From Phycisphaerae bacterium (GTDB taxonomy: Bacteria > Planctomycetota > Phycisphaerae > UBA1845 > UTPLA1): a stretch of DNA of 36,276 nucleotides. The translations under genes and the position numbers were made by a program. The notes beneath the pieces were generated by a model. The model saw only the letters and a list, made by a program, of their open reading frames with translations. It did no database searches and had not been told where the DNA came from. The DNA is taken from assembly GCA_029259995.1 (NCBI GenBank), contig JAJDEC010000342.1, positions 1-36,276 of the forward strand, written 5' to 3'. This document shows, piece by piece, positions 7,160 to 34,076 of this stretch; position 1 is the stretch's first letter; each line of letters starts with the position of its first letter.

Positions 7160-9109
<1,950 letters not shown>

Positions 9110-9374: not shown

Positions 9375-9392
9375 GTGCCGGGGCGGTCGCGA

Positions 9393-10586: not shown

Positions 10587-10677
10587 TGACATAACAAAGA
10601 ATTGGTATCGAGTCGATTGCTGTTCTCGGCTGAATGGGGCCGCAGAGGCGATCGACGTAGCAATCAGGAGATCAGTC

Positions 10678-11133: not shown

Positions 11134-11268
11134 TCCGCGCCAGGCGTCGAGCCTCGTGCTCGCTGCGCGACGCATTGGCGTTTCGTGCCCGGAAAACCCA
11201 TGAACGCATCACATCGGATCATCGAATCTCGCTTGCTTCGTCGTGGCCACGCCCGTGGCGACGTACGG

Positions 11269-12387: not shown

Positions 12388-12608
12388 TCTCCGCATTCCT
12401 GAATCCGTTCGTCTCTCAGCTCTAACTTCTATTGCTGCAATATGTTACGGCAGTTGATGCGGTTGCGGCGATCCCATGCCAATGCTGAAACCTTGATGGA
12501 TGACGCTGCGTGGAGCGATCCGTGCGTTCGGGCGTCCAAAATCCGGGCGGCGGGACTCCCGGAAATTGCGACGAATGCCGCTATTCGGCGTACAAGGAGG
12601 CATCTGGC

Positions 12609-19336: not shown

Positions 19337-19467
19337 GTGCCGCAATCGTGCGGTGCGAATCTGGTATCAGTTCCCGTCCACTCGGGACGGGATTCAAAAG
19401 CAGCGGGCGACGTCGTCGGGGGCGTACTGGACGAGTCGCACGCGTTTGCGAAAGGACACAACGAATC

Positions 19468-22400
19468 ATGTTGTCCGAAATGATGAACAAACGAGTCTTT
19501 GGCCGAATGGCGAGTCTCGTCATGGTGTTGACACTGTTGTCGCTCGCATTCGGCGCGTCCCGCCTGATCGCCGCGCCCTACGGCGTTCTGGAAGAGCCCA
19601 AGCCGACAGAGTCCAAAGATAAGGACAAAGAAAAGGACGACGCGCCCAAAGACGAGGACGCAGACGAGGACAAGGAATCCTCGGACGACAAGAAGGACGC
19701 GGACTCCAAGGACGATGCGTCGAAGGACGAGAAAAAGGACGAGAAGAAGGAAGATCTGGACAAAGAGCGCGAGCGCGTTGCCGAAGAGAGTGAAGCCGAG
19801 AAGCAGAAGGCGCTCGACAATCTGAGCAAGACGCCCGGTGGCCAGGACATGAGCGCTGCCGAGAAGGCGGAAATGGAAGCCCAGTTGGAGGCACTCAAGC
19901 AGGCGGCGATCAAGTCCGTCGGAAAGACGCCGCCGCCCGCACCGAAGAAGACGACGATCAAGCCGCAGGCAACGAAACCCGCAATCAACATGGATTCGGC
20001 GAAGAAGCCGGGCACGACGTTCGAGGACACCGAGGCGGGCAAGCGGATCCGTCGAAAGATCGGACCCCGAGGCGGCCTGCCGAAAGTGACGGATGCCGCG
20101 GCCAACGACGAAACGCCGGCTTCCAAGAAGAACACGAAGGGCAATCGTCGCAACCTGATCGACACGAGCAAAGAGAATCCGGAAGTGGATCCGAACTCGA
20201 ACGCCGAGGATGTCGGGGAGCCAAAGACAGCGGAGCAGAAGCGGCAGGAAGCGATCGAAAAAGCCCAGCAGCGCGCCAAGGATCGCCGCGCCGATCTCGA
20301 GTCGAAGCGTCGCGACAAGATGAATGCGATCCTGGATCGGGGCAAGAACGATCGCGACGACAAGAAACCGTCGTCGACGAAGCGGCCCCGCGTCGGAAAG
20401 CGAGGCCGGTCAAAGGTTGACGTCGATGTCGAGGATGCCGCCGACGATGATGATTCGTCGGTTCAATCTCCCATCGGAGAGATTCCGGCCGTGTTCATCG
20501 ATATCAAGATGGCGCCCGCCGCGGATCGTGAGTTCAGCATCAATTACGAAGAGACGCCGTGGATGGATGTCGTGGCGGACTTCGCGCGGATGAGCCGGCT
20601 TCCCTTCGTGCGGAATCTCGATGATGAGATTGAGGGCACGCTGACGTACTTCAGTACGGAAAAGTTCAGCTATGACGGGGCGTTTCACAAGCTCAACGAA
20701 TTGTTGTTCGATCGTCCACTGAACAATCTCGTGATCCAGCGGCTCAACGATCGCATCACAGTCGTTCGAATCCCGGACCTGCTCAAGGCGGTTCCGAAGG
20801 ATCGAATCTTCGGTTCGTTCGCGGAATTCAGGGCGGCGAATCTGGATCCGTATGTTGCGTGTCAGACACAGTATGTGCCGCCTGTCGGATTCACGCCGTT
20901 TCAGATCATCGAGCGCTATCGGCCGCTGTTCAGCGACACGTACGGCGTGAAAATCTCTGATCCGGATCGGCTGGAACTGACGGGATTCGCGAAAGAGCAC
21001 ATCTACTTCGACGAGATGGTTCGCCATCTGACGAACATCGAAAATCCGGACGAAATCGACAAGTACGTCACGATTCAGCTCAACTACGCGAAGGCGAATG
21101 ATGTACTGACGATTCTGCGGCAGTTGTATCCCATTCAAGGGGCCGCGGCACCGCCCGCCAAGCGCGGCGGACGACGAGGTCGTCGGCAACCGCAGGCGAA
21201 CGCAATCGCCCCGGATCTCGAAGATGCGGATGCCGTGAATATCATCACGGAAGCGAAAGCGAACATCCTCTACATCAAAGCCCCCGATTACCTCATGAAA
21301 GAACTCCGGAGCCGCATCGCGGAGCTGGATGTACCGACGGAAAGTCGGCCGGAGATGGAACTCGTTGAGCTGACGTACGCCGATGCGTCGACTGTCGTTT
21401 CCCAGGTCCTGCCGATTTTGCAAAGCATCGGTCCCCGAATAACAAAGAGCCCCGACTTCGTGGCGCCCAAGGAGCAGGCCAAATTCGATGTGACGCTCTT
21501 CCCGAGCGCCAACGGCAACGGCATCGTCATCGTGGGCGGCCGGGAAGGTATCGAGTTCGTTCGGCAGCTTGTTTTGAATCAGTTCGACGTACCGCCCGAT
21601 TGGATCACGAAATCGATCGGCCTTCAGCATCGAGACGCTTCTTACATCGTCGAACGATTGAATGAGGCGATGCCATCTTCCGGCGGCGGCCCAACGGCGG
21701 TTCGCCGCGGCAAGAAGGGCGGTCCCGCGATCGTTGCGACAGTGGACCAGCCGCCGAGCATCACGATTGTGTCAAGCCGAAGCCTGTTCGTCAGTGCGTC
21801 GCGATTCGACCTGGCGATGATCGAGGATCTCGTTCAGAAGCTCGATGTCGTCGATCCCGAAGAACCGAGCGAACACTTCGTGTATGTCAGATGCGCGACG
21901 CCGTCGGAAATCGCAGAAACTGTCCAGCAGATCATGGCGGAAGACAGCACGCCGAAAGTCGCTCAGCCGATTGCGGCGAAGAACGCCAAGGCCAGAGCGG
22001 CGGCGCGTCAGAGGGCGGCGCGAGCCAGTCGCGGTCGCAGCGTCCAGAGCGGCGGTGATGGACCAATGATCATTCCGAATGACGCGGATCAGTCGCTGCT
22101 AGTCTATTGCAGCGATCCAGACTGGATTGAAGTGCAGCGGCTGATCGATCGACTGGAGAGCAATGCCTGCGATGTCGAGCCGCAATGGGTTCAGATCAAG
22201 CTTGAACGGGCGGAGCCGACGGATATCGCGACGTACATCAATCAGATGTTTCCCGCGCCGGGCGGAAGCGCCCAGTCCGTCACAGCGGATTCCTTTAACA
22301 AGACAATCAACATTTACGCGACGCCGATGTTCATCGAAAAGGTTCGGCCGCTCATTGAGAAGATCGACTATACGTCCACTGGCGAACTGACAATCATCAA

Positions 22401-25400
22401 GCTGATGTGGGCGAAGGCCGAGATCATCGCGCCGATCATTCAGCAGGCCGTTCCCGAATCGCAATACGTGTCGCCGACAGCCCGGATCAATGCCGCTACG
22501 GCGAAAACGCGTCGCGGCAAGACGCCGCCCAAGGCGGCCCAGAACCGCGTCGTGCAGTCGGCGGGCGATACGAAGGTTCGCATCGTTGCCGAGCCCGTGA
22601 CGAACTCACTGCTCGTGACGGCGCCGCCGGAGAAGCTGCGCACGATTGAGAATCTCGTCAGCCAGATGGAGGCCGTCGCCGAGAGTCAGCGGCCGGAGAA
22701 GGTCATCGTCAACGTCATCAATCGCAAGGCCGACGAGATCGCGGGCGTGCTTTCCAGCATATTGAACGCGACGCAGGGCGCGGGCGGTAAGGAAGGCGCG
22801 GCGGGCGGTTCCGTGAATCCGACGGATGTCGAGCTCTCGATCACGGCGATCGGCGATCAGCTCATCCTGTTCGGGCCGCAGAATGAAGTCGCCGAAGCGA
22901 TTCAGCTTGTCACGCAGATCGACACGCTGGATGCGATGCCGATCACGCGAAAGGTTCGCGTTTATGACGCGGAAGAGGATGAGAAAAAACTCCGTTCGAT
23001 GCTGGCGCTGAAGGCCGACACAGCAATTTCCGTCAACCAGGCTCCGCAAAAAGGCGGACGTCGCGCTCCGAATCGACGCGCGCCGACAAAGCCGACGGCG
23101 AAGCTGACGGACACGGGCGCGACAGTGTCTGATGTGCAGATCTACGCAAATCCGTACGAGAACACGCTGCTGATCCGCGCGATGCCGAAGGATTGGAAGC
23201 TGATCGAAGAGATTCTGGATGTGATTCGGGATGACGCACCGCCCATTCCCGGCAGCGAAGACTACGAGTCGATGTTCATCGTCAACCTGAAGCACAAGTC
23301 GGCGTGGGATATTTCATACGACCTGGAAGATGTCATCAACATCGAAGGTCGGCGACCGGTTACGTTCAAGGAAGGACCTCGCGACAAGGATCTGATCGTG
23401 ATGAACTTCCGCCCGAGTCAGCGGCCGGAGATCGAGAAGTGGATCGAGATTTATGACGTGCCGAAGGATGGCGGCAAATACGGTTCGGGATATGTCTCGA
23501 TCGACGTCAAGGGCGGTATGTCGGCGCTGGACGCGGCGAGGTTGTTGAAGGCGCGGGCAGGTTCTGAGTTTCCGATCGAGATTGCGGAAATCGGCAGCGG
23601 GAGTGCCGTTCAGACGATTGACATTCACGCTGGCGAAGAGGAAGAGGAGGCAGCGAGTACGGAAGGCAAGCGAACGGATCGTGGCGCGGACGGGCGGCCG
23701 ATCTCGGCGCTGCCGTCGCATATGCTGCCGCTCTGGTTGCGCGACGTCGTGTGTGCCGCAGCGATCGGTCAATCGGAATCGGAAACCGAAAAGGACGACG
23801 GCGCACCGCTCGGCGGGCATCTGGAATCCATCCTGAATCCGCCGACGGATCGCGTGCAGATTTTGACGGATCCGGATACGGGAAAGCTGATCCTGCTCGG
23901 GCCTGAGGAAGAAGTGCAGCGTCTGCGGGACATTCTCGAAGAACTGATGGGCGACGAAAAGACGGAACCCGTCATGCGGATCTTCCCACTGAAGTACGCG
24001 CCTGTATCAGAAGTCGCCGCCAAGCTGAATGAGATCTTCAATAGCCCGGCGCAGCGCACGGTGAATCGTGGCAGAGGAAATCGGGCGCAGCCCCAGCTGC
24101 CCGGTCAGCCAACACAAGCCGGCAAAGGCGACGACAAGAACGCCAAGGGCAAGCAACCGGTTCAGCAGCAGGCTCCGGCGACGCCGGCGCGAATCAAAGT
24201 GATTCCGAACGAGCGAACGAGTTCAGTTGTCGTCGTCGCGCCGCCCAAGGAAATTCCGCTGATCGTCGAAGTGCTTCGCCATCTGGACAGCAAGCGGATT
24301 CTCGACGTCAACATGCGGATGTTCGAGATGAAGAATCTCGACGCTTCGCAAGTCGTTGAGAACCTGAAGGAAGTGCTCGGCATTGAGGATCGTGCCTTGA
24401 CCCGCGCTCCGCAGCGCGGACGCGGCGCCGCCAATCAGCGGGCCCAGCAGCAAGTGCAGATCCAGGGCGACGACGGCGACACGCTTGTCAGCGCTGACAA
24501 AGTCAAGCTGACGGCCGAATCGCAGACGAATACGATCATTGCGCAGGGGCCGCCGGATACGCTCGACTTGATCGAGGGCATCATCAAGGACCTCGAGGAC
24601 AAGACGATCAAGTCGGATGTCGAGATGATGCGGATCGTTCTGCGGAAGGCCCGCGCGAGCGAGATTGCGGACATCGTCCAGAGCCTGATCGACGAGACGA
24701 TCAATAATCAGAATGCGACGCCTGCCGCAGCGCCGCAGCGCGGTCGCGGTCGAGGCCGCACGCCGGCAGCGGCATCCCGTCGCAATGAAAACGTGTCGGT
24801 CCATGCGGATCCGCGGACGAACAGCGTGATCCTGGCGGGACCGGGCGATCAGCTGGAGAAGGCGAAGGCGATTGTTGAGGAACTGGACAACACGGAAGTG
24901 GGTCTCGTGATTCGACAGATTCCCGTCAAGGGCGAGGCGACGGAGATCGCGAATACGCTTCGAACGCTGTATAACGTGGGCGGCCGGCCCGGAGCTTCGC
25001 CGGATGTCATCATCACACCGCTGGATGCGACGCACACGATCCTGATCAAGGCCCCTGAGCCTTTGATGGTTGACATCGAAGAGCAGCTCGCCCTGATCGA
25101 CGCCAAATTTGAATCCAGTGACAAGCTGCGCAAGATTGAGATGAAGTTTGCGAATGCGGAGACAGTCGCAACGCAGCTGTCAGAATTATTCGGTACGGGC
25201 CGAACTTCGCGAGGTTCAACGAATCGTTCCGCCCAGATCTCCATTCGCGGCTACAAGAGCAGCGGCATCATCTACGTGCAGGCGCCCGATGAGGAATTCG
25301 AACGCATCAAGGCGACGGCCGAGGATCTCGACAAGGTCGACACGTCCGTCCAGGTGCATCGCCTCCAGCTCAATCACGCGCCGGCACAGCAGGTCCTGAC

Positions 25401-28400
25401 GAAAATCCAGGCGATGATGGGCGAAGCGATTCGCTCGGGGGCGATGGGGAATACGAATCTCGATTACGTCAGCATGCAGGCCGATCCGCGAACGAATTCG
25501 CTGATCCTTGTCGGCGGACCGACGTCGGCGCTGTTGCTCGGCCAGATGCTGGCGACGATCGACGTTCCCCAGGAAGGGAAGAACGAGCAGGAAACCAAGG
25601 TCTACACACTGCCGCCGACGATCAACGTGGCGGACATCGTTCGCAACATCAACGAGCTGTTTCGGGGCATCAGCCTCACGACGCACGGCGTCGAGCCGCC
25701 CGTTGTGACGCCCAACCAGGGATCGAACCTGATCATCGTTCGCGCCAACGGCAAGCAGCACGAGCAGATCGAGCGCGACGTCGTGAATCCCGTGAAGGCC
25801 GAGGGCGACAAGGGCGTTCGCAAGGACAACATCTATGTCGTCAACAATGCGAAGGCCGTTGATCTGGCCAACGTGCTGACGCGCCACGTTCGCGAGACGA
25901 TGCAGCAGGTGAATCGGCAGTATCCCGTCAATATCGTTGCCGACGAGGGAACAAACCAGCTGATCGTCAACGCGACGGACGAGGACTTCAACAAGATCAG
26001 GCCGATGATCGAGGCGCTCGACCAGGAATCCGGCGAGCGCAGGACGGAAGTCTTCAAGGTTCAGTACGTTTCGCCGTGGAGCATGGCGACGATTATTACG
26101 CAGCAGTTCCGCGGATCGTCGCGAAATCCGAACGATCAGGTCAACGCAAGTTTCGAGGACGGTACGTACAGCATTATTGTCACAGCCAACGATGAAAACA
26201 TGGCGAAGGTGCGCGATCTGATTCTCAAGGCCGATGTGCCGTCGAAGGAGACGATCACTGAATACGTGCAACTCAAGCACGGCCAATCCGACGAAATGCG
26301 CACGTCGATCGACGCGGCCCTGCGTGGTCGCTATCCGTCGGATCGACGGGGGCAGATGCCGTTTAACGTCACGTCTCAGAACCTGTCGAATACGTTGATC
26401 GTCAGCGCCCGCGAAGACATCATGCCGGAGATCCTGGACATGATTTCCAGGCTGGACATCCCCGGCGGCGGCGAGCACATTCGCCGCGTCTTCAAGCTGA
26501 CATTCTCCGAACCGGGATCGGTCTCGCGGATGATTCAGAACCTGTTCCGGCCGACGAGTGGTCGCCCGTCACCGAGAGAACAAGTCAAGAGCTCCGACGA
26601 CTGGGCGACGAACAGCGTCATCGTGTCGGCTGTCGAGTCGAAGATGCTGGAAGTGGAACAGCTGATCAATGAAATGGACCAGCCGGGCGACAGCGTGCGC
26701 ACGGAGCGCGTCATCAATATCGAGAACGCGGATCCGAACGACGTCGCATCGAGCATACAGCAGATTCTACAACAGGCGACGTCAGGTCAGCGCGGTCGGC
26801 AGGCGGCCGTCGTTCGCGCCGTGCGGGGCACGACGAAAATCGTCGCCTATGCCAACGAGAAGGAATACGAGTCGATCAAGTCGCTCGTGGAGCAGATCGA
26901 CATCGAGGGCGGCCGAATCATTCACGCCGTCGTCATTCCCGATCAGGTGCCGGCGCGAACGATCGCGGACAACATCAACAACCTCTTCGGTCGCGGCCGC
27001 CAGGGTGGCGATGCACCGCATGCGGAGTCGCACGAGCCGACGAATACGGTTCTCGTCAGCGCGACGGACGCCGAATTCGAACGCATTCAGGCGCAGTTGA
27101 TCACACCGCTGAGCGATTCGAAGGCGTCGGGGATCTTCAGTATTCACTACATCCCCGTGAAGAATGCGATTGCCGATGAAGTCGCACAGACGATGCAGGC
27201 GTTCTTCGACAAGAAGGCGGGCATCAGCAGCAATCGCGGATTCGGTCGCGGCGGCCGGGGCGGGGGCCAATCCGCCGAGGATCGCGACAATCAGGTCACG
27301 ATCACAGCCGAACCGAACAGCAACACGCTGATCGTCTATTGCACGGAAAAGACCAAGAAGGAAATCGATGATCTGCTCGCCGTGATCGACAGCGCCGATA
27401 CGACGGAAAAACGCGTCGAAATGGTGGCGCTGCAATACGTCGATGCAACGACGATGATTGAGATCCTGACGGAAGTGCTGCGTGTCAGCCGGACCAGTGC
27501 GAAAGAACCGGACGATCGCCCCTGGTGGGCGCGCGACAACGATCGCGACGACGACAAGGATGTCGTGCTGGCGGGCGACACGCGTTTGAAGGCGATCACG
27601 GAAACGAACTCCGTCATCGTTGCCGGAAAATCCGAAGCCGTCGAAGACGCCCTGGCAAAGATCGCGGAGCTGGACAAGCCGGGCGATACCGGCGACACGC
27701 CGGTTCCCATCCGGCTCGTCAACACGAATGCCTCGACGCTCGCCGAGACGCTGAAGCAGGTGTTTGTCGAGAACAACCGCAGTGGTTCGGGCGGCCGGAA
27801 CGGCAAGTCGTCGGGGCCCGAATTGACGATCGTTCCCGATCAGTCGTCGAACACGATCTATGTTCGAGGAAAGTTGTCGGATGTGAACAAGGTCGTCGAG
27901 CAGGCGAGGCAGATGGACTCGGAAGCGAGCGGCGGAGAATCCGGCATCGTGGTCATTCCGATTCCGTTCGGTCACGACGTGACGGACCTGGCCAACATGA
28001 TTGAATCCCAGATCAACGAAAACGAGCAGAATGAGAAGCAGAAGAATCGGAACTACACGCCGGACCTCGTCAAGATCACGCCCAACGCGCGGACGAACGT
28101 GCTGCTCGTGAATGCATCAAAATCGAAGCTGGAGGACGTGAAGCGCGTGATTGAAGATATGCAACAGCAAATGCAGTTCAGGGGCGGCCCCACGCGACGC
28201 GTGCTCAAGATTGAGAACATGACGCCGGAGCAGGCGAAGGAACTGATCGAGAAAGTCAAAGAAGGGCAGCAAAGCAGCGGCTCGAGTGGAAACACGCGGC
28301 GCAGCAATCGCGGCGGTCGTCGCGGCGACGCCAACTGGACGCACAACCGACGATTCGACGATGCGAAGCACAGCGCATCGCCGCGCCGAACCAAGCGCGC

Positions 28401-31400
28401 CGGCACGATGGTTGCCGCATCGATGCCTGTCTTCCTGATGAACGTCGCAATCTCGACCGGCTTTGCACAGTCGGATGCACCGAAGAAGGATGATCGTGAG
28501 CCGCCGCGTTCGATGCGGATTCGACCCCAGCAGCGCGACGACAAGAAGTCGGATACGAACAATGAACCACGGGCGCGAAAGACGGTTGCGTCGGGCCAGC
28601 CTGCGGCGCGAGGGACTCAGCCGCAGCCCGCGGGGAGGGATCCGCGAGATCCGAACGCGGCGACGTCCAATGCGGAGCGACTGATTCGTGAACGCGCCGC
28701 AGCTTCCAGCGGACCGCGGATGTCGGACGAAGTGCTGGAGCAGTTGAGCCGGCGACTGTCAGGCACGGATATCAACGTGATCGAAGCGCCGGACGGCAGC
28801 CTGATTCTGGAAGGCCTGGAGCAGGACGTCGATATCGTCGCCGGCATCATCGAGATGGTCGACCAGCAGACGCCGCTCAAGCAGATTGAGATCGTCATGC
28901 TCAAGAACCAGTTGGCCGAGCCGCTGGCGCAGAAGCTGACAACGGTCTTCAAGACGTTGGAGCCGCCGAATCCGCGACCGATCGACAAGGTGGATTTTCT
29001 GGCGGACCAGCGGACGAACAGCATCTTCATCGCGGCCGCACCTTCGAACATGCAGCGAGCCATCGATCTGGCGCGCATGGCGGACCAACCCTCGAATATA
29101 TCGCGACAGACGAAGTCCTTCGTCTTTCAGAATCGTCGCGTGATGGAAGTCGGTGAGACGATCAAGAAGATTGCGGCGAACTATCTGCGACAGTTGCAGT
29201 TGCCGACGGATCAGATTCAGATCGAGATCGACTCGTTCACGAACCAAGTGATTGTTTCCGCGGGCGAGCAGGACCTGGAATTTGTCGAGACGATCGTCAA
29301 GACGCTCGACATGAGCATCGACGATGCGGAAGCCGCGGATAAGATGAGCGAGATTGGCAAGGCCGACGTCATGGTCGTCCCGCTCCGCATTTCGCAGGCC
29401 CCCACGCTCGCCATCCTGATCAACGAGTTGCTGACGAAGGCCGCGACGGGCGACACGCCGTTGAAGGATTTCATCCGGCGCTTTCGCCTGCTCGACGAGA
29501 ATGGTAATCCCATCGCCGACGTGAATCTGGATCGACCCATCGCCGTGTTCGGCGAGCCGGAGTCGAATTCGCTGATCATTGCGAGCACCAAGGAGAATTG
29601 TCTCGTCGTGAAGCAGATTGCGATGGCTTTCGACAAGGAACCCAGCAAGGCGGCGGTCACGTCACGCGTCTTCACGCTGGCGTATGCGGATGCGACGGAA
29701 GTCGCGACGCAGCTCGATGCACTGCTGACGTCAACGGAGCAGATTACATCGAAGGCCAGCGGCGGCGGCGGTGCGGCCGGCGTGCCCGATGGACCGATCG
29801 GCGCGTTGGTCTACAAGGCCGTTGTGTCGGCGGACGCGCGAACAAACCAGGTCGTCGTCATCGGCCGACCGGAGGCCGTCGAAGCGATGGCGGGGCTCGT
29901 CGAAAAGCTCGACGTCAAGGGTCAGGGCGTGATGCCGTTTGAGATCGTGAAGCTGAATCACGCGAACGCGTCGGGCCTCGCAACGGCGCTGACGGACCTG
30001 ATGGACAAGCGCAAGTTAGCGATGCCGGCGGGCGGCGAGAATTCCGTGAAGAGTGAGACAGTCGTCATCGTGCCCGACGAGCGTTCCGTATCGCTGATCA
30101 TCGCGGCGAAGCGCGAGCGGATCGAGGAGTTGAAGGGCCTGATCGCGAAGCTGGACATACCGGCGACGGCGCTGATCGACAACATCCGCACGCTGACGCT
30201 CAAGAACAGCACGGCGACGGACCTGGCGGCCAAGCTCCAGGATCTGTGGTCGCAGAGCGAGGCGAATCGCGATTCCGCGCAGGGCGGTCTGACGTTCGAG
30301 ACGCCGGCAATCGTTGCCGATGAGCGCAGCAATTCGCTGATCATCGCGGCGAGCGAGAGCGACTTTGATGCGATCAAGTCTGTCGTCGAAAAGATCGAGA
30401 ATCTCGAACTGAACCCGATGTCGGATATTTACATCGTTCGGCTCAAGCACAATTCGGCGGCCGAACTGAAGGGACCGCTGCAGACAATGTTCGACAAGCG
30501 GGCCGAAATGCGATCGCTCCAGGAGCCGCGGCCGGAGGACAAAGTGTCCATCGAGTCGGATCCCGTGAACAACGCGCTGATTTTCGTGGCGTCGCGCGAG
30601 AATCACGAGTTGTTGATGCAGAAGATTGCGGATCTGGATCAGCCGATCGGTGCGATTCCCGTTGTCGAATTCTTCAAATGCGAGAATGTGTACGCAGATA
30701 CGGTCAAGGAAGCGATCGAGAATTTCGTCGAGAATGCTTTCCGCCCCGGTACCGGTGGCGACAGCAGCGTTCTGACGGAGCGGAACAAAGTTGCCGTTGT
30801 AGTCGACAGCCGGGCCAACATGCTGATCGTCTCGGCGAGCCCGGAGAACATGGAAGTCATCCGTCGAATCTACAGCGAGATGAACGACATCCGAAGTCCT
30901 TGGACGCCTGTCCACATTCAGATTGTCGAGTTGAAGAACACGGAAGCGAGTCAGCTTGCATCGAAAGTCGAGACGTGGCTTGAGCAGTTGAACACGGACG
31001 TGCAGTCGGGAACGAGCGGTGGTGGCGGTTCGCAGAACCAGTTCGCCGTGCGCGTCATTGCCGACACGGTTCGCAACTGGCTCTTCGTCGGCGGCACGCG
31101 CGACGGCGTTCGCCAGGCGATGGACTTCATCGCCAAGTACGATCAACCGATCGATCCGAACGTGGGGCCGTTTGTCAGCGCCGAGGTATATCCGCTCAAC
31201 CAGGCGAAGGCGAGCCAGGTCGGCGAGATGCTTCGCAACATCTTCGACGCACGAAATAATCAGTCAGGGACGGGCGATGCGGCGATGCAGCCGATTCCCG
31301 TGACTGTCGAAATCAACGAGCCCGGGAATTCGCTGTTGATTAATGCGTCGCGGCAGGATCATCTCATGGTCACGGGATTGCTGGCCCGGCTTGATGTGCC

Positions 31401-33954
31401 ATCCGAGATCCCGCGGATGTTCAAGGTTTATCCGCTCTCCAAGGCGTCGGCGACTGTCGTCAAGGAGACGCTGGATCAGATTTACCAGTCGAGCAGCACA
31501 CAGGGCGGCGGCGCTCAGGGCATCGTGACGGTTGCGGAAGAGCGGACCAATTCCGTCGTCGTGGCCGTGCCTCCGGGCGAACTTGCCAATGTTCAAAAGC
31601 TGATTACGCAGCTCGACCAGATCGAGATCACGGAGATTGCCGAAGTCGAAGTCATCCAGTGTGAGAACGAAGACGCCAACAAGATGGCGGAGCTCCTCAC
31701 GGAGATCATGACCGGCCAGTCGGCACAGGGCGGCGCCGGCAGCGCGGCCGATGCGGAATCCGCGCGGCAGCTCAGCTCACTGCTGGTCCAGTTCGAGGCC
31801 AAGGACCAATACGGCCAGCGCGACATTCTCCAGACGGTTCGCGAGAACGTGCAGATCAGCTACAACGAACGCTCGAACAGTGTCATCGTCGTCGCGCCGC
31901 CGTCGTCGATGCGATTGATCAAGAAGCTGGTGCAGAAGCTGGATGGCATTCAGAAGCGCGAAGTTCGCGTGAAAGTGTTCCCGCTCGTCAACTCCGACGC
32001 CGCGATCATGGTCGAGAAGCTCGAATCCATGTTCGCCCAGGACGACAGCGCGTCCGATCAGGAAGCCTTCCAGCAAGGTCGTGAAATCACAGTCGAAGGC
32101 GGCGCCAGCGACGTCGCTTCGGGGCCGGAATTCGCAGGGGCGGCCAATTCGCGGAAGGGCACGTTCGGCCGACCGCGAACGACATTCGTCGCTGATGAGC
32201 GAACCAACTCCATCATCGTTGCCGGCTGGCCGGAAGACATCGACGTCGCCGCCGACATTATCGATGCGTTGGACTCGCGTGACATTCAGGAACGCATCAC
32301 GACGGTCTATCCGCTCGTCAACATGAAGGCCGACGAAGTGCAGGGATCGCTCGATTCGTATTTCCAGGCCCAGCGAGACGCACAGAGCTCCGTCGAAGGT
32401 CAGGCCCAGGCGAGATTGCTCGAGAAAGACGTGACAGTCGTGTCTCACGAGGAGTCGAATCAACTCATCGTTTCTTCCAGCCCGCGCTATCAATCGGAAG
32501 TGTTACGGATCATTCAGCAGCTCGACGCACCGCCGCCGCAGGTCATGATCGAAGTCATGATCGCGGAAGTCACGCTCGACGACAGTTTCGAAATGGGCAT
32601 GGAGTTCGCGTTGCAGCAGCTCAAATTCAGCGAGACGGCCGTCGCCGGCGGCAACGGCATTCTTCAGAGCAACTCGTTCGACTTTGTCGGAGGTACGGAC
32701 CTCGGCGCTGCGGGTGCGGGATTGGGCGGCTTCAGCTTCACGATCACGGGCGAGGATTTCAACTTCCTTGTGCGGGCGCTTCAGTCCGACAGCCGACTGG
32801 ATGTGATTCAGCGGCCGATGATCATGTGCCAGAACAATCAAACCGCCTCGATCAACATCGGTCAGCAAGTGCCCTTCGTTCGGGGCACGACTGTGTCGGA
32901 CAACGGCCAGACGACGGCCAACATCGAATATGAACCGGTCGGCGTCATCCTGAACGTCGAACCGATTATTAATCCGGATGGCTTCGTCTACATGCTGATC
33001 GAACCGGAAGTCTCGTCGATCACGGATTCCAGCATTCCGCTGGGTAACGGCATTTTCGCTCCGATCATTTCAGAGCAGAAGGCCAGCACGACGGTCGCCG
33101 TCAAGGATGGCGAGACAGTCGTCATCGGCGGATTGATCACGACGCGGGAAACGGAATCGGAGAGCAAAGTGCCCGTACTCGGCGACATGCCGGGGATCGG
33201 CAATCTCTTCCGCACGACGTCGCGCCGCAACACGCGTTCAGAACTGCTCATTGCGATGACGCCGACGATTATCCGATCCGTCGAAGATGCACGGCGCACG
33301 AGCGAATTTCAGCGTGATCTCGGCGGATATCTGACGCCGGAAGTCAAGGGCAGCCCGCTGATGCGGAATCTGCAGGTTGAACCGGAGTCGTATAGCGAGA
33401 TCGATTCGATCGAAAGCGATCCGGGAACGATGCAGCCGCGCGTGTTGCCGAGCGGCAAGCCGCAGATCATCCCGACGCAGCCGCAGCGCGGGCCGAGCTA
33501 TGTCCCCGCGGCGCCGCGATACGGTCCTGTCGTCCCGCAATCGACGTCGGGAACGGCGAATGTGATGGTGCGGAACGGCGCGGCAGTGTCGCCAGGCGCC
33601 TCGCAGGCGTCCTATCAGCGGCCCGTCTCATCGCAACGCATCGGTACGATGCAGCCGGCGCTACCGACAGTTGACCAGGTGCGCAGCGGCGCGGCGCCGC
33701 TGGGACGTCCGAATCAGGATTTGCGTCCCGGGATGCCGCAGGGTAATCCGCAGACCTATGCCAATCGACCTGCCGTTGCTTCGTCGCCGGTTCGAACGTA
33801 CATGCGATTGCCGGAATTCTCGGCGGACGAGGAAGCCGCACGGCCGATCGTGAAGATCAGCACGCATCCGTCGAAGCGAAGTACGTCGGAAAAGGAAGCG
33901 CTGCGCCGTCAGGCTGCCGTGAAGAAATCGAACCGGAGCGACACGCATCGATGA
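19468..33954 (+). CDS. gspD: Giant secretin (GspD/PilQ family), ~4,828 aa, with ~40 N-domain repeats and one C-terminal secretin beta-barrel domain
   Basis: The frame is uninterrupted to TGA at 33952-33954. ATG 19468 gives a Sec-type signal peptide, MLSEMMNKRVFGRMASLVMVLTLLSLAFGASRLIAAP. The track start at 19318 adds 50 Arg-rich residues and overlaps the upstream gene. The C-terminal region carries secretin hallmarks (see domain features). Confidence 0.9.
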   Translation: MLSEMMNKRVFGRMASLVMVLTLLSLAFGASRLIAAPYGVLEEPKPTESKDKDKEKDDAPKDEDADEDKESSDDKKDADSKDDASKDEKKDEKKEDLDKERERVAEESEAEKQKALDNLSKTPGGQDMSAAEKAEMEAQLEALKQAAIKSVGKTPPPAPKKTTIKPQATKPAINMDSAKKPGTTFEDTEAGKRIRRKIGPRGGLPKVTDAAANDETPASKKNTKGNRRNLIDTSKENPEVDPNSNAEDVGEPKTAEQKRQEAIEKAQQRAKDRRADLESKRRDKMNAILDRGKNDRDDKKPSSTKRPRVGKRGRSKVDVDVEDAADDDDSSVQSPIGEIPAVFIDIKMAPAADREFSINYEETPWMDVVADFARMSRLPFVRNLDDEIEGTLTYFSTEKFSYDGAFHKLNELLFDRPLNNLVIQRLNDRITVVRIPDLLKAVPKDRIFGSFAEFRAANLDPYVACQTQYVPPVGFTPFQIIERYRPLFSDTYGVKISDPDRLELTGFAKEHIYFDEMVRHLTNIENPDEIDKYVTIQLNYAKANDVLTILRQLYPIQGAAAPPAKRGGRRGRRQPQANAIAPDLEDADAVNIITEAKANILYIKAPDYLMKELRSRIAELDVPTESRPEMELVELTYADASTVVSQVLPILQSIGPRITKSPDFVAPKEQAKFDVTLFPSANGNGIVIVGGREGIEFVRQLVLNQFDVPPDWITKSIGLQHRDASYIVERLNEAMPSSGGGPTAVRRGKKGGPAIVATVDQPPSITIVSSRSLFVSASRFDLAMIEDLVQKLDVVDPEEPSEHFVYVRCATPSEIAETVQQIMAEDSTPKVAQPIAAKNAKARAAARQRAARASRGRSVQSGGDGPMIIPNDADQSLLVYCSDPDWIEVQRLIDRLESNACDVEPQWVQIKLERAEPTDIATYINQMFPAPGGSAQSVTADSFNKTINIYATPMFIEKVRPLIEKIDYTSTGELTIIKLMWAKAEIIAPIIQQAVPESQYVSPTARINAATAKTRRGKTPPKAAQNRVVQSAGDTKVRIVAEPVTNSLLVTAPPEKLRTIENLVSQMEAVAESQRPEKVIVNVINRKADEIAGVLSSILNATQGAGGKEGAAGGSVNPTDVELSITAIGDQLILFGPQNEVAEAIQLVTQIDTLDAMPITRKVRVYDAEEDEKKLRSMLALKADTAISVNQAPQKGGRRAPNRRAPTKPTAKLTDTGATVSDVQIYANPYENTLLIRAMPKDWKLIEEILDVIRDDAPPIPGSEDYESMFIVNLKHKSAWDISYDLEDVINIEGRRPVTFKEGPRDKDLIVMNFRPSQRPEIEKWIEIYDVPKDGGKYGSGYVSIDVKGGMSALDAARLLKARAGSEFPIEIAEIGSGSAVQTIDIHAGEEEEEAASTEGKRTDRGADGRPISALPSHMLPLWLRDVVCAAAIGQSESETEKDDGAPLGGHLESILNPPTDRVQILTDPDTGKLILLGPEEEVQRLRDILEELMGDEKTEPVMRIFPLKYAPVSEVAAKLNEIFNSPAQRTVNRGRGNRAQPQLPGQPTQAGKGDDKNAKGKQPVQQQAPATPARIKVIPNERTSSVVVVAPPKEIPLIVEVLRHLDSKRILDVNMRMFEMKNLDASQVVENLKEVLGIEDRALTRAPQRGRGAANQRAQQQVQIQGDDGDTLVSADKVKLTAESQTNTIIAQGPPDTLDLIEGIIKDLEDKTIKSDVEMMRIVLRKARASEIADIVQSLIDETINNQNATPAAAPQRGRGRGRTPAAASRRNENVSVHADPRTNSVILAGPGDQLEKAKAIVEELDNTEVGLVIRQIPVKGEATEIANTLRTLYNVGGRPGASPDVIITPLDATHTILIKAPEPLMVDIEEQLALIDAKFESSDKLRKIEMKFANAETVATQLSELFGTGRTSRGSTNRSAQISIRGYKSSGIIYVQAPDEEFERIKATAEDLDKVDTSVQVHRLQLNHAPAQQVLTKIQAMMGEAIRSGAMGNTNLDYVSMQADPRTNSLILVGGPTSALLLGQMLATIDVPQEGKNEQETKVYTLPPTINVADIVRNINELFRGISLTTHGVEPPVVTPNQGSNLIIVRANGKQHEQIERDVVNPVKAEGDKGVRKDNIYVVNNAKAVDLANVLTRHVRETMQQVNRQYPVNIVADEGTNQLIVNATDEDFNKIRPMIEALDQESGERRTEVFKVQYVSPWSMATIITQQFRGSSRNPNDQVNASFEDGTYSIIVTANDENMAKVRDLILKADVPSKETITEYVQLKHGQSDEMRTSIDAALRGRYPSDRRGQMPFNVTSQNLSNTLIVSAREDIMPEILDMISRLDIPGGGEHIRRVFKLTFSEPGSVSRMIQNLFRPTSGRPSPREQVKSSDDWATNSVIVSAVESKMLEVEQLINEMDQPGDSVRTERVINIENADPNDVASSIQQILQQATSGQRGRQAAVVRAVRGTTKIVAYANEKEYESIKSLVEQIDIEGGRIIHAVVIPDQVPARTIADNINNLFGRGRQGGDAPHAESHEPTNTVLVSATDAEFERIQAQLITPLSDSKASGIFSIHYIPVKNAIADEVAQTMQAFFDKKAGISSNRGFGRGGRGGGQSAEDRDNQVTITAEPNSNTLIVYCTEKTKKEIDDLLAVIDSADTTEKRVEMVALQYVDATTMIEILTEVLRVSRTSAKEPDDRPWWARDNDRDDDKDVVLAGDTRLKAITETNSVIVAGKSEAVEDALAKIAELDKPGDTGDTPVPIRLVNTNASTLAETLKQVFVENNRSGSGGRNGKSSGPELTIVPDQSSNTIYVRGKLSDVNKVVEQARQMDSEASGGESGIVVIPIPFGHDVTDLANMIESQINENEQNEKQKNRNYTPDLVKITPNARTNVLLVNASKSKLEDVKRVIEDMQQQMQFRGGPTRRVLKIENMTPEQAKELIEKVKEGQQSSGSSGNTRRSNRGGRRGDANWTHNRRFDDAKHSASPRRTKRAGTMVAASMPVFLMNVAISTGFAQSDAPKKDDREPPRSMRIRPQQRDDKKSDTNNEPRARKTVASGQPAARGTQPQPAGRDPRDPNAATSNAERLIRERAAASSGPRMSDEVLEQLSRRLSGTDINVIEAPDGSLILEGLEQDVDIVAGIIEMVDQQTPLKQIEIVMLKNQLAEPLAQKLTTVFKTLEPPNPRPIDKVDFLADQRTNSIFIAAAPSNMQRAIDLARMADQPSNISRQTKSFVFQNRRVMEVGETIKKIAANYLRQLQLPTDQIQIEIDSFTNQVIVSAGEQDLEFVETIVKTLDMSIDDAEAADKMSEIGKADVMVVPLRISQAPTLAILINELLTKAATGDTPLKDFIRRFRLLDENGNPIADVNLDRPIAVFGEPESNSLIIASTKENCLVVKQIAMAFDKEPSKAAVTSRVFTLAYADATEVATQLDALLTSTEQITSKASGGGGAAGVPDGPIGALVYKAVVSADARTNQVVVIGRPEAVEAMAGLVEKLDVKGQGVMPFEIVKLNHANASGLATALTDLMDKRKLAMPAGGENSVKSETVVIVPDERSVSLIIAAKRERIEELKGLIAKLDIPATALIDNIRTLTLKNSTATDLAAKLQDLWSQSEANRDSAQGGLTFETPAIVADERSNSLIIAASESDFDAIKSVVEKIENLELNPMSDIYIVRLKHNSAAELKGPLQTMFDKRAEMRSLQEPRPEDKVSIESDPVNNALIFVASRENHELLMQKIADLDQPIGAIPVVEFFKCENVYADTVKEAIENFVENAFRPGTGGDSSVLTERNKVAVVVDSRANMLIVSASPENMEVIRRIYSEMNDIRSPWTPVHIQIVELKNTEASQLASKVETWLEQLNTDVQSGTSGGGGSQNQFAVRVIADTVRNWLFVGGTRDGVRQAMDFIAKYDQPIDPNVGPFVSAEVYPLNQAKASQVGEMLRNIFDARNNQSGTGDAAMQPIPVTVEINEPGNSLLINASRQDHLMVTGLLARLDVPSEIPRMFKVYPLSKASATVVKETLDQIYQSSSTQGGGAQGIVTVAEERTNSVVVAVPPGELANVQKLITQLDQIEITEIAEVEVIQCENEDANKMAELLTEIMTGQSAQGGAGSAADAESARQLSSLLVQFEAKDQYGQRDILQTVRENVQISYNERSNSVIVVAPPSSMRLIKKLVQKLDGIQKREVRVKVFPLVNSDAAIMVEKLESMFAQDDSASDQEAFQQGREITVEGGASDVASGPEFAGAANSRKGTFGRPRTTFVADERTNSIIVAGWPEDIDVAADIIDALDSRDIQERITTVYPLVNMKADEVQGSLDSYFQAQRDAQSSVEGQAQARLLEKDVTVVSHEESNQLIVSSSPRYQSEVLRIIQQLDAPPPQVMIEVMIAEVTLDDSFEMGMEFALQQLKFSETAVAGGNGILQSNSFDFVGGTDLGAAGAGLGGFSFTITGEDFNFLVRALQSDSRLDVIQRPMIMCQNNQTASINIGQQVPFVRGTTVSDNGQTTANIEYEPVGVILNVEPIINPDGFVYMLIEPEVSSITDSSIPLGNGIFAPIISEQKASTTVAVKDGETVVIGGLITTRETESESKVPVLGDMPGIGNLFRTTSRRNTRSELLIAMTPTIIRSVEDARRTSEFQRDLGGYLTPEVKGSPLMRNLQVEPESYSEIDSIESDPGTMQPRVLPSGKPQIIPTQPQRGPSYVPAAPRYGPVVPQSTSGTANVMVRNGAAVSPGASQASYQRPVSSQRIGTMQPALPTVDQVRSGAAPLGRPNQDLRPGMPQGNPQTYANRPAVASSPVRTYMRLPEFSADEEAARPIVKISTHPSKRSTSEKEALRRQAAVKKSNRSDTHR
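19591..20460 (+). other. K/D/E-rich low-complexity region at the mature N-terminus of the secretin
   Basis: About 290 aa such as EEPKPTESKDKDKEKDDAPKDEDADEDKESSDDKKDADSKDD...KRRDKMNAILDRGKNDRDDKKPSS...DVEDAADDDDSS. The region has no hydrophobic core pattern. Confidence 0.8.
20533..20778 (+). other. N0-like (STN/TonB-plug-like) domain of the secretin
   Basis: FSINYEETPWMDVVADFARMSRLPFVRNLDDEIEGTLTYFSTEKFSYDGAFHKLNELLFDRPLNNLVIQRLNDRITVVRIPD matches the N0 pattern. That pattern is: first strand, helix with target-specific residues, G.vT.., a second helix, then a hairpin. Confidence 0.6.
21064..32526 (+). repeat. Array of ~40 protein-level tandem secretin-N (N1/N2/N3-type) domains, divergent at the DNA level
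   Basis: The unit recurs as: strand with (Y/F)xxA, a helix, a strand carrying [DE]x[RS][TS]N[STQ][LV][IL][IV]xA, a helix, then [LI][IV]xx[LI]D. Examples are ADPRTNSVILAGP (~24805), ADPRTNSLILVGG (~25482), ADERSNSLIIAAS (~30313), EERTNSVVVAVP (~31537) and ADERTNSIIVAGW (~32191). My manual count is 38-42. Linkers interrupt the array at ~23600-23830 and ~28250-28760. Confidence 0.8.
32527..33279 (+). other. Secretin C-terminal beta-barrel domain (PF00263-type)
   Basis: The domain runs PPPQVMIEVMIAEVTLDDSFEMGMEF...FNFLVRALQSDSRLDVIQRPMIMCQNNQTASINIGQQVPF...EYEPVGVILNVEPIINPDGFVYMLIEPEVSS...STTVAVKDGETVVIGGLI...SKVPVLGDMPGIGNLFRTTS...ELLIAMTPTIIRS. Confidence 0.92.
33280..33951 (+). other. P/Q/G-rich low-complexity C-terminal tail of the secretin (S-domain position)
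   Basis: About 224 aa follow the barrel, for example ...PQIIPTQPQRGPSYVPAAPRYGPVVPQS...RPGMPQGNPQTYANRPAVASSP.... The tail ends in the basic stretch KRSTSEKEALRRQAAVKKSNRSDTHR. Confidence 0.75.
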
Positions 33955-34007: not shown

Positions 34008-34076
34008 ATGCGTGGGGCATCGGCAAGGCGTCGATGCCGCACGTGTTTATGGAAAAGGCAATGGCGAACTGAATGA
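34008..34076 (+). CDS. Candidate 22-codon upstream ORF / leader peptide coupled to the lipoprotein gene
   Basis: AAGGAG (33998-34003) lies 4 nt upstream of ATG 34008. The product is MRGASARRRCRTCLWKRQWRTE. Its TGA (34074-34076) overlaps ATG 34073 of the next gene (ATGA). It is below the ORF-track length cutoff and could be chance. Confidence 0.25.
   Translation: MRGASARRRCRTCLWKRQWRTE
34016..34038 (+). terminator. Hairpin downstream of the secretin gene (possible terminator or attenuator)
   Basis: GGCATCG-GCAAGGCGT-CGATGCC forms a 7-bp stem with a 9-nt loop, followed by GCACGTGTTTAT (only a weak T-run). It lies inside the candidate uORF. Confidence 0.25.

What the first reader, a model, noticed from the sequence alone, without database searches (positions are those of the whole stretch)
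19468..33954. Giant ~4.8k-residue secretin with ~40 stacked N-domain modules and a single barrel
Seen in the sequence: one stop-free 14.5 kb frame begins with a Sec signal peptide. Its only secretin beta-barrel region sits at the extreme C-terminus (32527-33279). Upstream of the barrel I count about 40 (38-42) copies of the secretin N-domain signature. Examples are VHADPRTNSVILAGPGDQLEKAKAIVEELD, VADERSNSLIIAASESDFDAIKSVVEKIE and VADERTNSIIVAGWPEDIDVAADIIDALD. The copies are diverged at the DNA level, so this is not a simple assembly duplication.

Established knowledge: canonical GspD/PilQ secretins are roughly 600-800 aa, with one N0 domain and 2-3 such N domains that form stacked periplasmic rings.

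Inference: if these domains stack in the same way, the periplasmic conduit would be about an order of magnitude longer than in known T2SS/T4P machines. That would fit a cell with a greatly enlarged periplasm, as described for Planctomycetota. It could relate to surface pit or fibre structures whose genes are not well assigned, but that link is speculation.
Basis: partly seen in the sequence, partly recalled or inferred. Interest (0 to 1): 0.9.

Follow-up and report, generated by a model that had tools for sequence, protein, structure and literature searches.

The report
Giant forty-domain outer-membrane secretin
A real 4,828-residue outer-membrane channel protein (a secretin) from a Phycisphaerae bacterium carries about 40 copies of the small periplasmic ring domain, where studied secretins carry 3 to 6; it belongs to a large, unstudied family of such giants.

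Summary
ORF 19468-33954 (+) is stop-free and starts with a signal peptide. It contains one N0 domain, about 40 diverged Secretin_N modules (31 by Pfam, 40-41 by my own HMM) and a single C-terminal secretin barrel. It follows type II secretion genes (GspF, GspG, pseudopilins, GspL-like).

It is not an assembly artefact. In 24 related Planctomycetota metagenome genomes the ORF stays open across all 10 kb of upstream sequence available. A 68%-identical full-length homologue exists. Of the 150 best cluster representatives, 116 exceed 3,000 aa, with up to 58 modules; cluster members reach 6,885 aa. Databases name them automatically, and I found no paper describing them.

New anatomy:
- The module train is cut by two long loops, each holding a conserved hydrophobic helix.
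- The second loop holds a complete signal-peptide-like element and splits one module in two.
- A sister clade has a gene boundary in exactly that loop: a barrel-less N-domain protein followed by a 14-module secretin.
- The 14-15 modules next to the barrel are constant in number; the others vary.
- A conserved beta-sandwich lipoprotein follows the gene.

A 120-160 nm stacked conduit remains inference. The enlarged-periplasm rationale is weak for Phycisphaerae.

The parts
19468..33954 (+). Giant secretin gene, 4,828 aa plus stop
   Evidence: Stop-free frame. The start is shared with the 68%-identical P0001. Pfam Secretin_N E=4.7e-287 and Secretin E=4.8e-50. TIGR02517 GspD scores 1070.7 bits against a cut-off of 351.
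19468..19578 (+). N-terminal signal peptide: basic n-region, 17-aa hydrophobic core, small-residue c-region
   Evidence: Highest hydropathy of the whole protein at aa 14-30. Read from the sequence; no signal-peptide predictor was available.
19579..20472 (+). Low-complexity spacer of about 300 aa, 41% Lys/Asp/Glu
   Evidence: Translation; composition.
20533..20784 (+). N0 domain, the domain that docks canonical GspD to the inner-membrane platform
   Evidence: A profile of 30 homologues hits the GspD N0 domain (5wq7_A residues 4-93, E=3.1e-5) and the XcpQ and PilQ N0 domains. The AlphaFold model has pLDDT 87. The top Foldseek hits are XcpQ, GspD, LspD and PilQ N0 domains, probability 1.00.
21031..23241 (+). 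Part 1: 8 clear Secretin_N modules, plus 1-2 degenerate ones up to about nt 23600
   Evidence: Own HMM.
23704..23778 (+). Junction 1: conserved amphipathic helix SALPSHMLPLWLRDVVCAAAIGQSE (motif LPxxL...small-x-G/A-Q-S/T) inside a variable acidic loop
   Evidence: Conserved in 16 aligned relatives while the flanks are hypervariable. The sequence after the loop matches only the second half of a module, HMM positions 49-83.
23833..28182 (+). Part 2: 18 Secretin_N modules
   Evidence: Own HMM. The number varies from 13 to 22 in relatives.
28195..28266 (+). Left half (beta1-alpha1) of the module split by junction 2
   Evidence: Matches HMM positions 8-42. Joined to the right half it gives a full module, HMM 8-86, i-Evalue 2.8e-8.
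28321..28476 (+). Junction 2 loop core: conserved RGDANW motif, then a complete signal-peptide-like element (RRTKRAG / TMVAASMPVFLMNVAISTG / FAQ|SD)
   Evidence: The n-, h- and c-regions are conserved in the window and all 23 aligned fused-clade loci, whereas the rest of the loop is hypervariable. It lines up with the genuine signal peptides of the split-clade secretins. No start codon is conserved upstream.
28768..28863 (+). Right half (beta2-beta3-alpha2) of the module split by junction 2
   Evidence: Matches HMM positions 56-86. Mature split-clade secretins begin with the same half-module.
28849..32544 (+). Part 3: 14 Secretin_N modules next to the barrel
   Evidence: Own HMM. The count is 14-15 in all full-length fused relatives and 14 in most split-clade secretins (range 11-18).
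32776..33276 (+). The single secretin (outer-membrane double beta-barrel) domain
   Evidence: PF00263, one stretch, aa 4437-4603, profile positions 1-169 of 169, E=4.8e-50.
33295..33951 (+). Pro/Gln/Ser-rich C-terminal tail of about 220 aa, probably disordered; its length varies among relatives
   Evidence: Translation; composition. ORF ends in the related loci differ.
34073..34747 (+). Conserved lipoprotein (lipobox ..FMGG|C) directly after the secretin gene; candidate pilotin or accessory protein
   Evidence: Sequence. Found directly downstream of the secretin in 55 related loci, split clade included. The lipobox is conserved. It has no Pfam family. The model is a beta-sandwich with pLDDT 79 and resembles no known pilotin.
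34811..35356 (+). Small hydrophobic protein with about four membrane helices, syntenic in the closer relatives
   Evidence: Sequence. tblastn hits in 15 loci at the same position. A gene of 181-200 aa sits at this position in other contigs.
9375..19336 (+). Upstream type II secretion-like genes: GspF (9375-10586), GspG (10567-11133), four pseudopilin-like genes (11185-16059; one J-like, one K-like), a PilM/GspL-like gene (16059-17777) and a 520-aa single-pass membrane protein of unknown family (17774-19336)
   Evidence: Pfam hits: T2SSF 9.5e-62, T2SSG 1.1e-23, N_methyl, T2SSJ (below the cut-off), T2SSK_1st 1.4e-12, PilM_2 1.9e-22. Translation of the last gene. No GspE, GspC or prepilin peptidase lies in the window.

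Best explanation
This is the outer-membrane secretin of a type II secretion-like (type IV filament superfamily) machine in an uncultured Phycisphaerae bacterium. Its periplasmic N-domain array is greatly expanded.

Shown here: a Sec-type signal peptide; one N0 domain; about 40 ring-building Secretin_N modules; one C-terminal secretin barrel. The gene sits in one strand-run with GspF, GspG, pseudopilins and a GspL-like gene, and is followed by a conserved lipoprotein.

Inferred mechanism:
- The chain is exported through Sec.
- The barrel oligomerises (12-16 subunits in known secretins) and inserts into the outer membrane, possibly helped by the lipoprotein.
- The modules of neighbouring subunits pack into stacked rings and form a periplasmic tube.
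- The N0 ring at the far end docks to the inner-membrane platform.

The 14 modules next to the barrel are constant in number across relatives. I read them as a fixed-length spacer of roughly 45-55 nm. The 26-27 modules further away vary in number and would extend the tube to about 120-160 nm if they all stack.

Two modules carry long loops with conserved hydrophobic helices. The second loop holds a full signal-peptide-like element and is the point where a sister clade splits the protein into two genes. In that clade the two chains should rejoin by complementing the two halves of one module.
For: Identity:
- Pfam and NCBIfam hits.
- N0 domain by profile and by fold.
- Operon context.

Reality of the ORF:
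- 24 independent metagenome genomes keep it open across the whole 10 kb flank.
- P0001 is 68% identical over the full length.
- Separately assembled contigs carry gene calls of 4,853, 4,400, 4,719 and 4,745 aa.
- There are no long DNA repeats.

Family size:
- 116 of the best 150 cluster representatives exceed 3,000 aa.
- Representatives have up to 58 modules; cluster members reach 6,885 aa.

Fixed spacer: part 3 has 14-15 modules in all full-length fused relatives and 14 in most split-clade secretins (range 11-18), whereas part 2 has 13-22 and part 1 has 7-10.

Split module:
- In the window, the sequences on either side of the loop are the left and right halves of one module.
- In the split clade the upstream protein ends with the left half in 7 of 8 loci, and the secretin begins with the right half in 8 of 8.

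Continuity is under selection:
- 24 of 24 fused loci are in frame, against 5 of 13 same-frame pairs in the split clade (coordinates).

Precedent for N-domain rings spanning a wide periplasm: T. thermophilus PilQ, with six rings and a length of 350 A.
Against: - No structural or experimental evidence shows that the 40 modules form rings, or that they stack in one line. I did not model any oligomer.
- A tube of 120-160 nm exceeds a normal periplasm several-fold. Phycisphaerae are reported to lack the internal membrane system of other planctomycetes.
- A pseudopilus piston would have to be very long to act through such a tube.
- GspE, GspC and the prepilin peptidase are not in the window.
- The conserved internal signal-peptide-like element has no role in a simple single-chain model.
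- The lipoprotein resembles no known pilotin.
Confidence: 0.6

Rival explanations
1. A polyprotein, or a multi-chain assembly in function. The single ORF is cut after the A-x-A|Q site of junction 2, and perhaps after the small-x-G|Q site of junction 1. The cut would be made by signal peptidase I or another periplasmic protease. The mature machine would then have the same two or three chains that the split clade makes from separate genes, held together by the reconstituted split module. The fusion would serve only to guarantee equal amounts and co-export.
For: - All three signal-peptide features (basic n-region, h-region, A-x-A|Q) are conserved in every aligned fused locus, inside an otherwise hypervariable loop.
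- Junction 1 keeps a -3/-1 small-residue pattern followed by Q.
- The split clade uses the equivalent position as a real gene start with a real signal peptide.
- Two populations that are 99.97% identical differ by TGG versus TGA at the conserved W at the start of this loop. One is called as a 4,745-aa gene and the other as 2,885 + 1,607 aa.
- The barrel tree suggests that fused and split states changed more than once.
Against: - Signal peptidase I normally needs the h-region to span the membrane with its N-terminus inside. A helix that follows 3,000 exported residues would enter the translocon the other way round.
- The junction 1 helix is only weakly hydrophobic and contains Arg and Asp.
- The ORF stays in frame in all 24 loci, which argues that the covalent link matters at least during synthesis.
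- There is no direct evidence of cleavage.
Confidence: 0.3
2. The modules do not form one straight tube. Only part 3 (14 modules) spans the periplasm. Parts 1 and 2 form something else near the inner membrane, such as a folded-back second wall, a basal cage or a flexible scaffold. The two hydrophobic loop helices would anchor particular rings to a membrane surface, or form extra gates in the lumen.
For: - The module count is constant in part 3 and variable in parts 1 and 2.
- The loop helices are flanked by basic residues and carry a conserved central Asn or Gln.
- Phycisphaerae are reported to lack an elaborate internal membrane system, so 120-160 nm is hard to fit.
Against: - The basal family members have uninterrupted trains of 36-58 modules with no such loops.
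- N0 lies at the far end of the chain, as expected for an end-on docking tube.
- There is no structural evidence for fold-back.
Confidence: 0.3
3. The machine extrudes a fibre or a polymer rather than secreting folded proteins. It would act as a type IV pilus-like sheath or a nozzle, and the long tube would guide a filament.
For: - The TIGR02515 PilQ model also scores above its cut-off, and the neighbour gene matches PilM_2.
- The pseudopilin-like genes are unusually large, at 292-563 aa.
- A piston acting through a very long tube is implausible.
Against: - The best model match is GspD (1070.7 bits against 351.8 for PilQ).
- The neighbours hit T2SSG, T2SSJ and T2SSK models.
- No AMIN domains, PilT or PilB were found in the window.
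Confidence: 0.2
4. An assembly or annotation artefact: collapsed repeats, a chimeric contig, or neighbouring genes fused by sequencing errors.
For: - The source is probably a metagenome assembly.
- The exact protein is not on record in the gene index.
- One relative (L074) does carry a stop in the loop.
Against: - The same continuous ORF is found in 24 related genomes and in several independent assemblies.
- The modules are only 18.5% identical to one another.
- There are no long DNA repeats.
- Base composition is even along the gene.
Confidence: 0.02

Closest known systems
Type II secretion secretin GspD (E. coli, Vibrio and Klebsiella GspD/PulD; Pseudomonas XcpQ)
   Same: Signal peptide, N-terminal N0 domain, Secretin_N ring-building modules and a C-terminal secretin double barrel. 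Encoded with GspF, GspG and pseudopilins. The best NCBIfam model is TIGR02517.
   Different: About 40 N modules instead of three, and 4,828 aa instead of about 650-750. It has a 300-aa charged spacer before N0, two long loops with hydrophobic helices inside modules, and a 220-aa Pro/Gln-rich tail. No recognisable pilotin fold was found. GspC and GspE are not nearby.
Thermus thermophilus PilQ (757 aa, 13-mer, six stacked rings N0-N5, 350 A long)
   Same: A secretin whose number of N-domain rings is raised so that it spans an unusually wide periplasm. Loops between rings form an additional gate (PMC5745081).
   Different: Six rings against about 40. It is a type IV pilus and DNA-uptake secretin, made as a single chain with no internal signal-peptide-like element.
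Split-clade Phycisphaerae secretin pairs (for example loci L035, L037, L045)
   Same: Orthologous barrel, the same 14 modules next to the barrel, the same downstream lipoprotein and the same loop position.
   Different: They are encoded as two genes: a barrel-less N-domain protein that ends in half a module plus an Arg-rich tail, and a 1,500-2,200-aa secretin with its own signal peptide that begins with the other half-module.
Uninterrupted giant secretins of Phycisphaerae metagenome genomes (for example P0011 at 5,532 aa with 58 modules; OQB85541.1 at 6,805 aa)
   Same: The same family and domain types, with N0 at the N-terminus.
   Different: They lack the two long helix-bearing loops, and some have even more modules.

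Membership tests
Secretin superfamily (GspD, PilQ, InvG, pIV) | C-terminal secretin domain (PF00263) | tested here: met
   One full-length match at aa 4437-4603, E=4.8e-50, 169.9 bits against a cut-off of 27.5.
Secretin superfamily (GspD, PilQ, InvG, pIV) | Periplasmic ring-building N domains (PF03958, beta-alpha-beta-beta-alpha) | tested here: met
   31 Pfam stretches, 927 bits; 40-41 by my own HMM. The fold of the modules themselves was not modelled.
Secretin superfamily (GspD, PilQ, InvG, pIV) | Sec signal peptide | tested here: met
   The n-h-c pattern is visible at aa 1-37, and this is the top hydropathy segment of the protein. No dedicated predictor was available.
Secretin superfamily (GspD, PilQ, InvG, pIV) | Homo-oligomeric (12-16-mer) gated channel in the outer membrane | not testable with these tools
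   Needs oligomer modelling or experiment.
Type II secretion GspD | Match to the GspD equivalog model above its cut-off | tested here: met
   TIGR02517 scores 1070.7 bits against 351.35, and the best stretch covers model positions 199-598 of 600. The total is inflated by 23 repeated N-domain stretches.
Type II secretion GspD | N0 domain at the N-terminus | tested here: met
   Profile hit to GspD N0, E=3.1e-5. Model pLDDT 87. Foldseek top hits are XcpQ, GspD and LspD N0 domains, TM-score 0.79 relative to 4jtm.
Type II secretion GspD | Three N domains (N1-N3) between N0 and the barrel | tested here: not met
   About 40 modules. This is why I file it as a variant and not as an ordinary member.
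Type II secretion GspD | Encoded with a complete Gsp set (C, E, F, G-K, L, M, O) | tested here: inconclusive
   F, G, J-like, K-like, two more pseudopilin-like genes and an L-like gene are present. E, C and O were not found within the 36 kb.
Type II secretion GspD | Pilotin or S-domain pairing | tested here: inconclusive
   A conserved lipoprotein lies directly downstream in 55 loci, but its beta-sandwich model matches no known pilotin.
Type IVa pilus PilQ | PilQ model match, AMIN domains and a pilMNOP neighbourhood | tested here: not met
   TIGR02515 scores 351.8 bits against 284.35, well below the GspD score. No AMIN domain is reported. Only a PilM_2-like neighbour is present.

The most novel reading that the evidence does not exclude
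The giant secretins are trans-envelope tubes built from up to 40-58 stacked rings. In the window's clade the single precursor behaves as a bacterial secretory polyprotein. A conserved internal signal-peptide-like element sits in the loop of one ring module. It either directs cleavage or anchors that ring to a membrane. The resulting pieces stay joined because each carries half of the same domain. The sister clade achieves the same assembly from two genes. That would be a natural case of protein assembly by domain-fragment complementation, and a new way of building an envelope-spanning conduit.
Probability: 0.25. Interest if true: 0.9.

Novelty: new variant of a known kind. Interest (0 to 1): 0.72.

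Why it matters
Secretins are among the best-studied outer-membrane machines. Their periplasmic part has been regarded as a short stack of three to six rings. A widespread family with 30-58 ring modules per subunit, which would give complexes of about 8 MDa for a 15-mer, would change the known size range of these machines.

It raises concrete questions:
- How is such a protein exported and assembled?
- How can a pseudopilus or pilus work through it?
- What does the envelope of Phycisphaerae, common in sludge, sediments and soils, really look like?

The split module and the internal signal-peptide-like element give a testable model for how large periplasmic assemblies can evolve through gene fission and fusion without losing function. 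A conserved new lipoprotein partner is also defined.

Tried and rejected
Searches that gave nothing usable:
- The homologue search with the full protein and with a 490-aa C-terminal piece timed out.
- A search with aa 335-761 returned no hit, although homologues exist.
- The exact-sequence look-up of the giant protein found no record.
I repeated it with database homologues.
- Foldseek on the lipoprotein gave only generic Ig/FnIII-like beta-sandwich hits.

Ideas tested and set aside:
- Internal translation start at junction 2. ATG, GTG or TTG is absent within 25 codons upstream of the helix in 3 of 23 loci. Its presence in the others is about what chance predicts (my own estimate is roughly 76% for a 25-codon window). 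There is no Shine-Dalgarno usage at any gene start in the window. It is not excluded, but it is not supported.
- Stop-codon readthrough in the split clade. The stop codons are mixed: 8 TAG, 6 TGA, 6 TAA.
- Both junction helices as transmembrane passes. The junction 1 helix is too polar, and a single pass at junction 2 would place the barrel on the wrong side of the membrane.
- Apparent three-gene splits in L039, L046 and L063. The breaks fall inside modules, so they are probably errors or pseudogenes.
- An automated screen for split modules across the whole family was noisy, because half-modules score too weakly.

Literature: ten full-text searches found no description of giant secretins.
Full report
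**1. Observation**

The + strand frame from 19318 to 33954 has no stop codon. The full-length homologue P0001 (4,890 aa, 68% identity over the whole length) begins with the same MLSEM... residues. The strongest hydrophobic segment of the protein lies at aa 14-30.

Pfam reports Secretin_N with E=4.7e-287 in 31 separate stretches. It reports one Secretin domain at aa 4437-4603, which is nt 32776-33276. NCBIfam's GspD equivalog scores 1070.7 bits against a cut-off of 351. An HMM built from the protein's own modules finds 40-41 modules with a median spacing of 84 aa.

The modules are old and diverged. Their mean pairwise identity is 18.5% and the maximum is 38%. At the DNA level only 33-43 nt stretches of 60-79% identity recur, and there are no tandem arrays.

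**2. Context**

Upstream on the same strand lie GspF, GspG and four pseudopilin-like genes. One of these hits T2SSJ weakly and one hits T2SSK. They are followed by a PilM/GspL-like gene and a 520-aa single-pass membrane protein. Further upstream are an arginine decarboxylase, LptF/LptG and housekeeping genes. No GspE, GspC or prepilin peptidase lies in the window.

Directly downstream is a lipoprotein with lipobox FMGG|C. It is conserved at that position in 55 related loci. It has no Pfam family. Its model is a beta-sandwich (pLDDT 79) that resembles no known pilotin. A small four-helix membrane protein follows it in the closer relatives. In several relatives a VKOR-DsbA fusion comes next.

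**3. The gene is real and has many relatives**

A pattern scan of one genome per species returned 68 loci. Nearly all are Phycisphaerae or Planctomycetota metagenome genomes. In 24 of them the ORF runs without a stop through the entire 10 kb upstream flank, giving more than 3,380 aa and 31-37 modules in view. Contigs from other sequencing projects carry gene calls of 4,853, 4,400, 4,719 and 4,745 aa.

An exhaustive HMMER search with the last 1,200 aa before the tail found 45,175 proteins at E≤0.001. Of the best 150 cluster representatives, 116 are longer than 3,000 aa. Representatives have up to 58 modules in 5,532 aa, and cluster members reach 6,805 and 6,885 aa.

Sources name these proteins 'secretin N-terminal domain-containing protein' or 'type II secretion system protein D'. 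Every named one comes from a metagenome genome. Ten full-text searches found no paper that describes such proteins. A 2025 review of the phylum does not contain the words 'secretion system'.

**4. Anatomy**

After the signal peptide comes a spacer of about 300 aa that is 41% Lys/Asp/Glu. An N0 domain follows.
- A profile of this region from 30 family members hits the N0 domains of GspD, XcpQ and PilQ.
- Its model has pLDDT 87.
- The best structural matches are those same N0 domains.

The module train has three parts: 8 clear modules, then 18, then 14. Among relatives, part 3 has 14-15 modules in every full-length fused relative and 14 in most split-clade secretins (range 11-18). Part 2 ranges from 13 to 22 and part 1 from 7 to 10. 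After the barrel there is a Pro/Gln/Ser-rich tail of about 220 aa whose length varies among relatives.

**5. The junctions**

Both interruptions are long, hypervariable loops that each contain a short conserved island.

Junction 1 (aa 1413-1437) is an amphipathic helix with the pattern LPxxL...small-x-G/A-Q-S/T.

Junction 2 (aa 2973-3003) has every feature of a signal peptide: a basic n-region, a 17-residue hydrophobic core and A-x-A|Q. All three features are conserved in the window and all 23 aligned fused-clade loci.

The sequence just before the junction 2 loop matches the first half of a module (HMM positions 8-42). The sequence just after it matches the second half (positions 56-86). Joined together, they score as one complete module. 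The loop is therefore an insertion between alpha1 and beta2 of a single module. That is also the position where ordinary modules carry their variable loop (alignment).

**6. The split clade**

In about 25 more distant loci (44-52% identity in the barrel region) the secretin gene is only 1,500-2,200 aa long. It has 14 modules in most of these loci and its own short signal peptide. Directly before it lies a large barrel-less gene with 16-22 Secretin_N modules that runs off the locus.
- That upstream protein ends with the first half of a module plus an Arg-rich tail, in 7 of 8 loci tested.
- The mature secretin begins with the second half of a module, in 8 of 8.

The gene boundary therefore falls in the same loop as junction 2. 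The signal peptide of the split secretin corresponds to the internal helix of the fused protein. The simplest reading is that the two chains rejoin by complementing the two halves of one domain. This is inference.

The stop codons at the boundary are mixed in type, so there is no sign of programmed readthrough. The two genes share a reading frame in only 5 of 13 split loci, as chance predicts. All 24 fused loci are in frame, so the continuous ORF is maintained by selection.

Two populations that are 99.97% identical differ by TGG versus TGA at the conserved Trp of the RGDAxW motif at the start of the loop. One is called as a 4,745-aa gene and the other as 2,885 + 1,607 aa.

A rough neighbour-joining tree of the barrel region places the uninterrupted giants at the base. 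It places the split clade between two loop-bearing giant clades, with one fused protein inside the split clade. The fused state is probably ancestral, and the state has changed more than once. The tree is too crude to be sure.

**7. What the internal signal-peptide-like element does is unexplained**

- An internal translation start is not supported. Three of 23 loci have no ATG, GTG or TTG within 25 codons upstream, the rest are at about chance level, and this organism shows no Shine-Dalgarno signals.
- A single transmembrane pass is topologically impossible between two periplasmic parts.
- The remaining candidates are cleavage at A-x-A|Q (a polyprotein), a surface membrane anchor for one ring, or a gate in the lumen.

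**8. Mechanism and its limits**

By homology, the barrel forms the outer-membrane channel and the modules form stacked rings.

The characterised secretin with the most rings that I found, T. thermophilus PilQ, has six rings and is 350 A long. [quoted passage not shown] I estimate 3-4 nm per ring from that figure. On this basis 14 modules give about 45-55 nm and 40 modules give about 120-160 nm.

The constant count of part 3 suggests that its length matters. Whether parts 1 and 2 continue the same tube is open. Phycisphaerae are reported to lack the internal membrane system of other planctomycetes. No evidence links the gene to crateriform structures, whose components remain unknown.

**9. Verdict**

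This is a real, conserved, hyper-expanded secretin of a type II secretion-like system. It is one member of a large family that public databases annotate automatically but that has not been studied. It is a new variant of a known kind.

My confidence that it is a genuine giant secretin is about 0.9. My confidence that all its modules form one long stacked conduit is about 0.4.

Noticed in passing
window 34073-34747 (+): A lipoprotein with no known family lies directly after the secretin gene. It is conserved at that position in 55 related loci. Its model is a beta-sandwich unlike any known pilotin. It is a candidate new accessory protein for secretins.
   Followed up: yes
L073 versus L074, locus position 4376: Two metagenome contigs that are 99.97% identical differ by TGG versus TGA at the conserved Trp at the start of the junction 2 loop. 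The change turns a 4,745-aa gene call into calls of 2,885 and 1,607 aa. It could be a natural fused/split polymorphism or a sequencing error.
   Followed up: partly
window 34811-35356 (+); L069 11361-12656; L070 10687-11955; L073 11395-12615: A small four-helix membrane protein follows the lipoprotein in the closer relatives. A VKOR-thioredoxin-DsbA fusion gene comes next in several relatives. Junction 1 carries conserved Cys residues (SPCVLP and CPIC motifs in relatives), so disulfide formation may matter.
   Followed up: no
P0164 and P0169 (cluster of P0127): Even larger family members exist: 6,805 aa (OQB85541.1, Planctomycetes bacterium ADurb.Bin126, named 'Type II secretion system protein D precursor') and 6,885 aa.
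   Followed up: no
window 17774-19336 (+): A 520-aa protein with one N-terminal membrane helix and a large periplasmic part, with no Pfam family, lies between the GspL-like gene and the secretin. It could stand in for GspM or GspC and contact N0.
   Followed up: no
window 2487-3767 (-) and 7160-9109 (+): Two pyridoxal-dependent decarboxylases lie next to the secretion operon: an ornithine/DAP-type enzyme and an arginine decarboxylase. An LptF/LptG pair at 3884-6671 (-) fits an LPS-containing outer membrane.
   Followed up: no
L039, L046, L063: In these loci the large upstream gene is broken inside modules, not in a loop. These breaks look like frameshifts, sequencing errors or decay rather than natural gene boundaries.
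   Followed up: partly
window 19318-19467: The open frame extends 50 codons upstream of the conserved start and overlaps the end of the previous gene by 19 nt. Gene callers may therefore report 4,878 aa instead of 4,828.
   Followed up: yes
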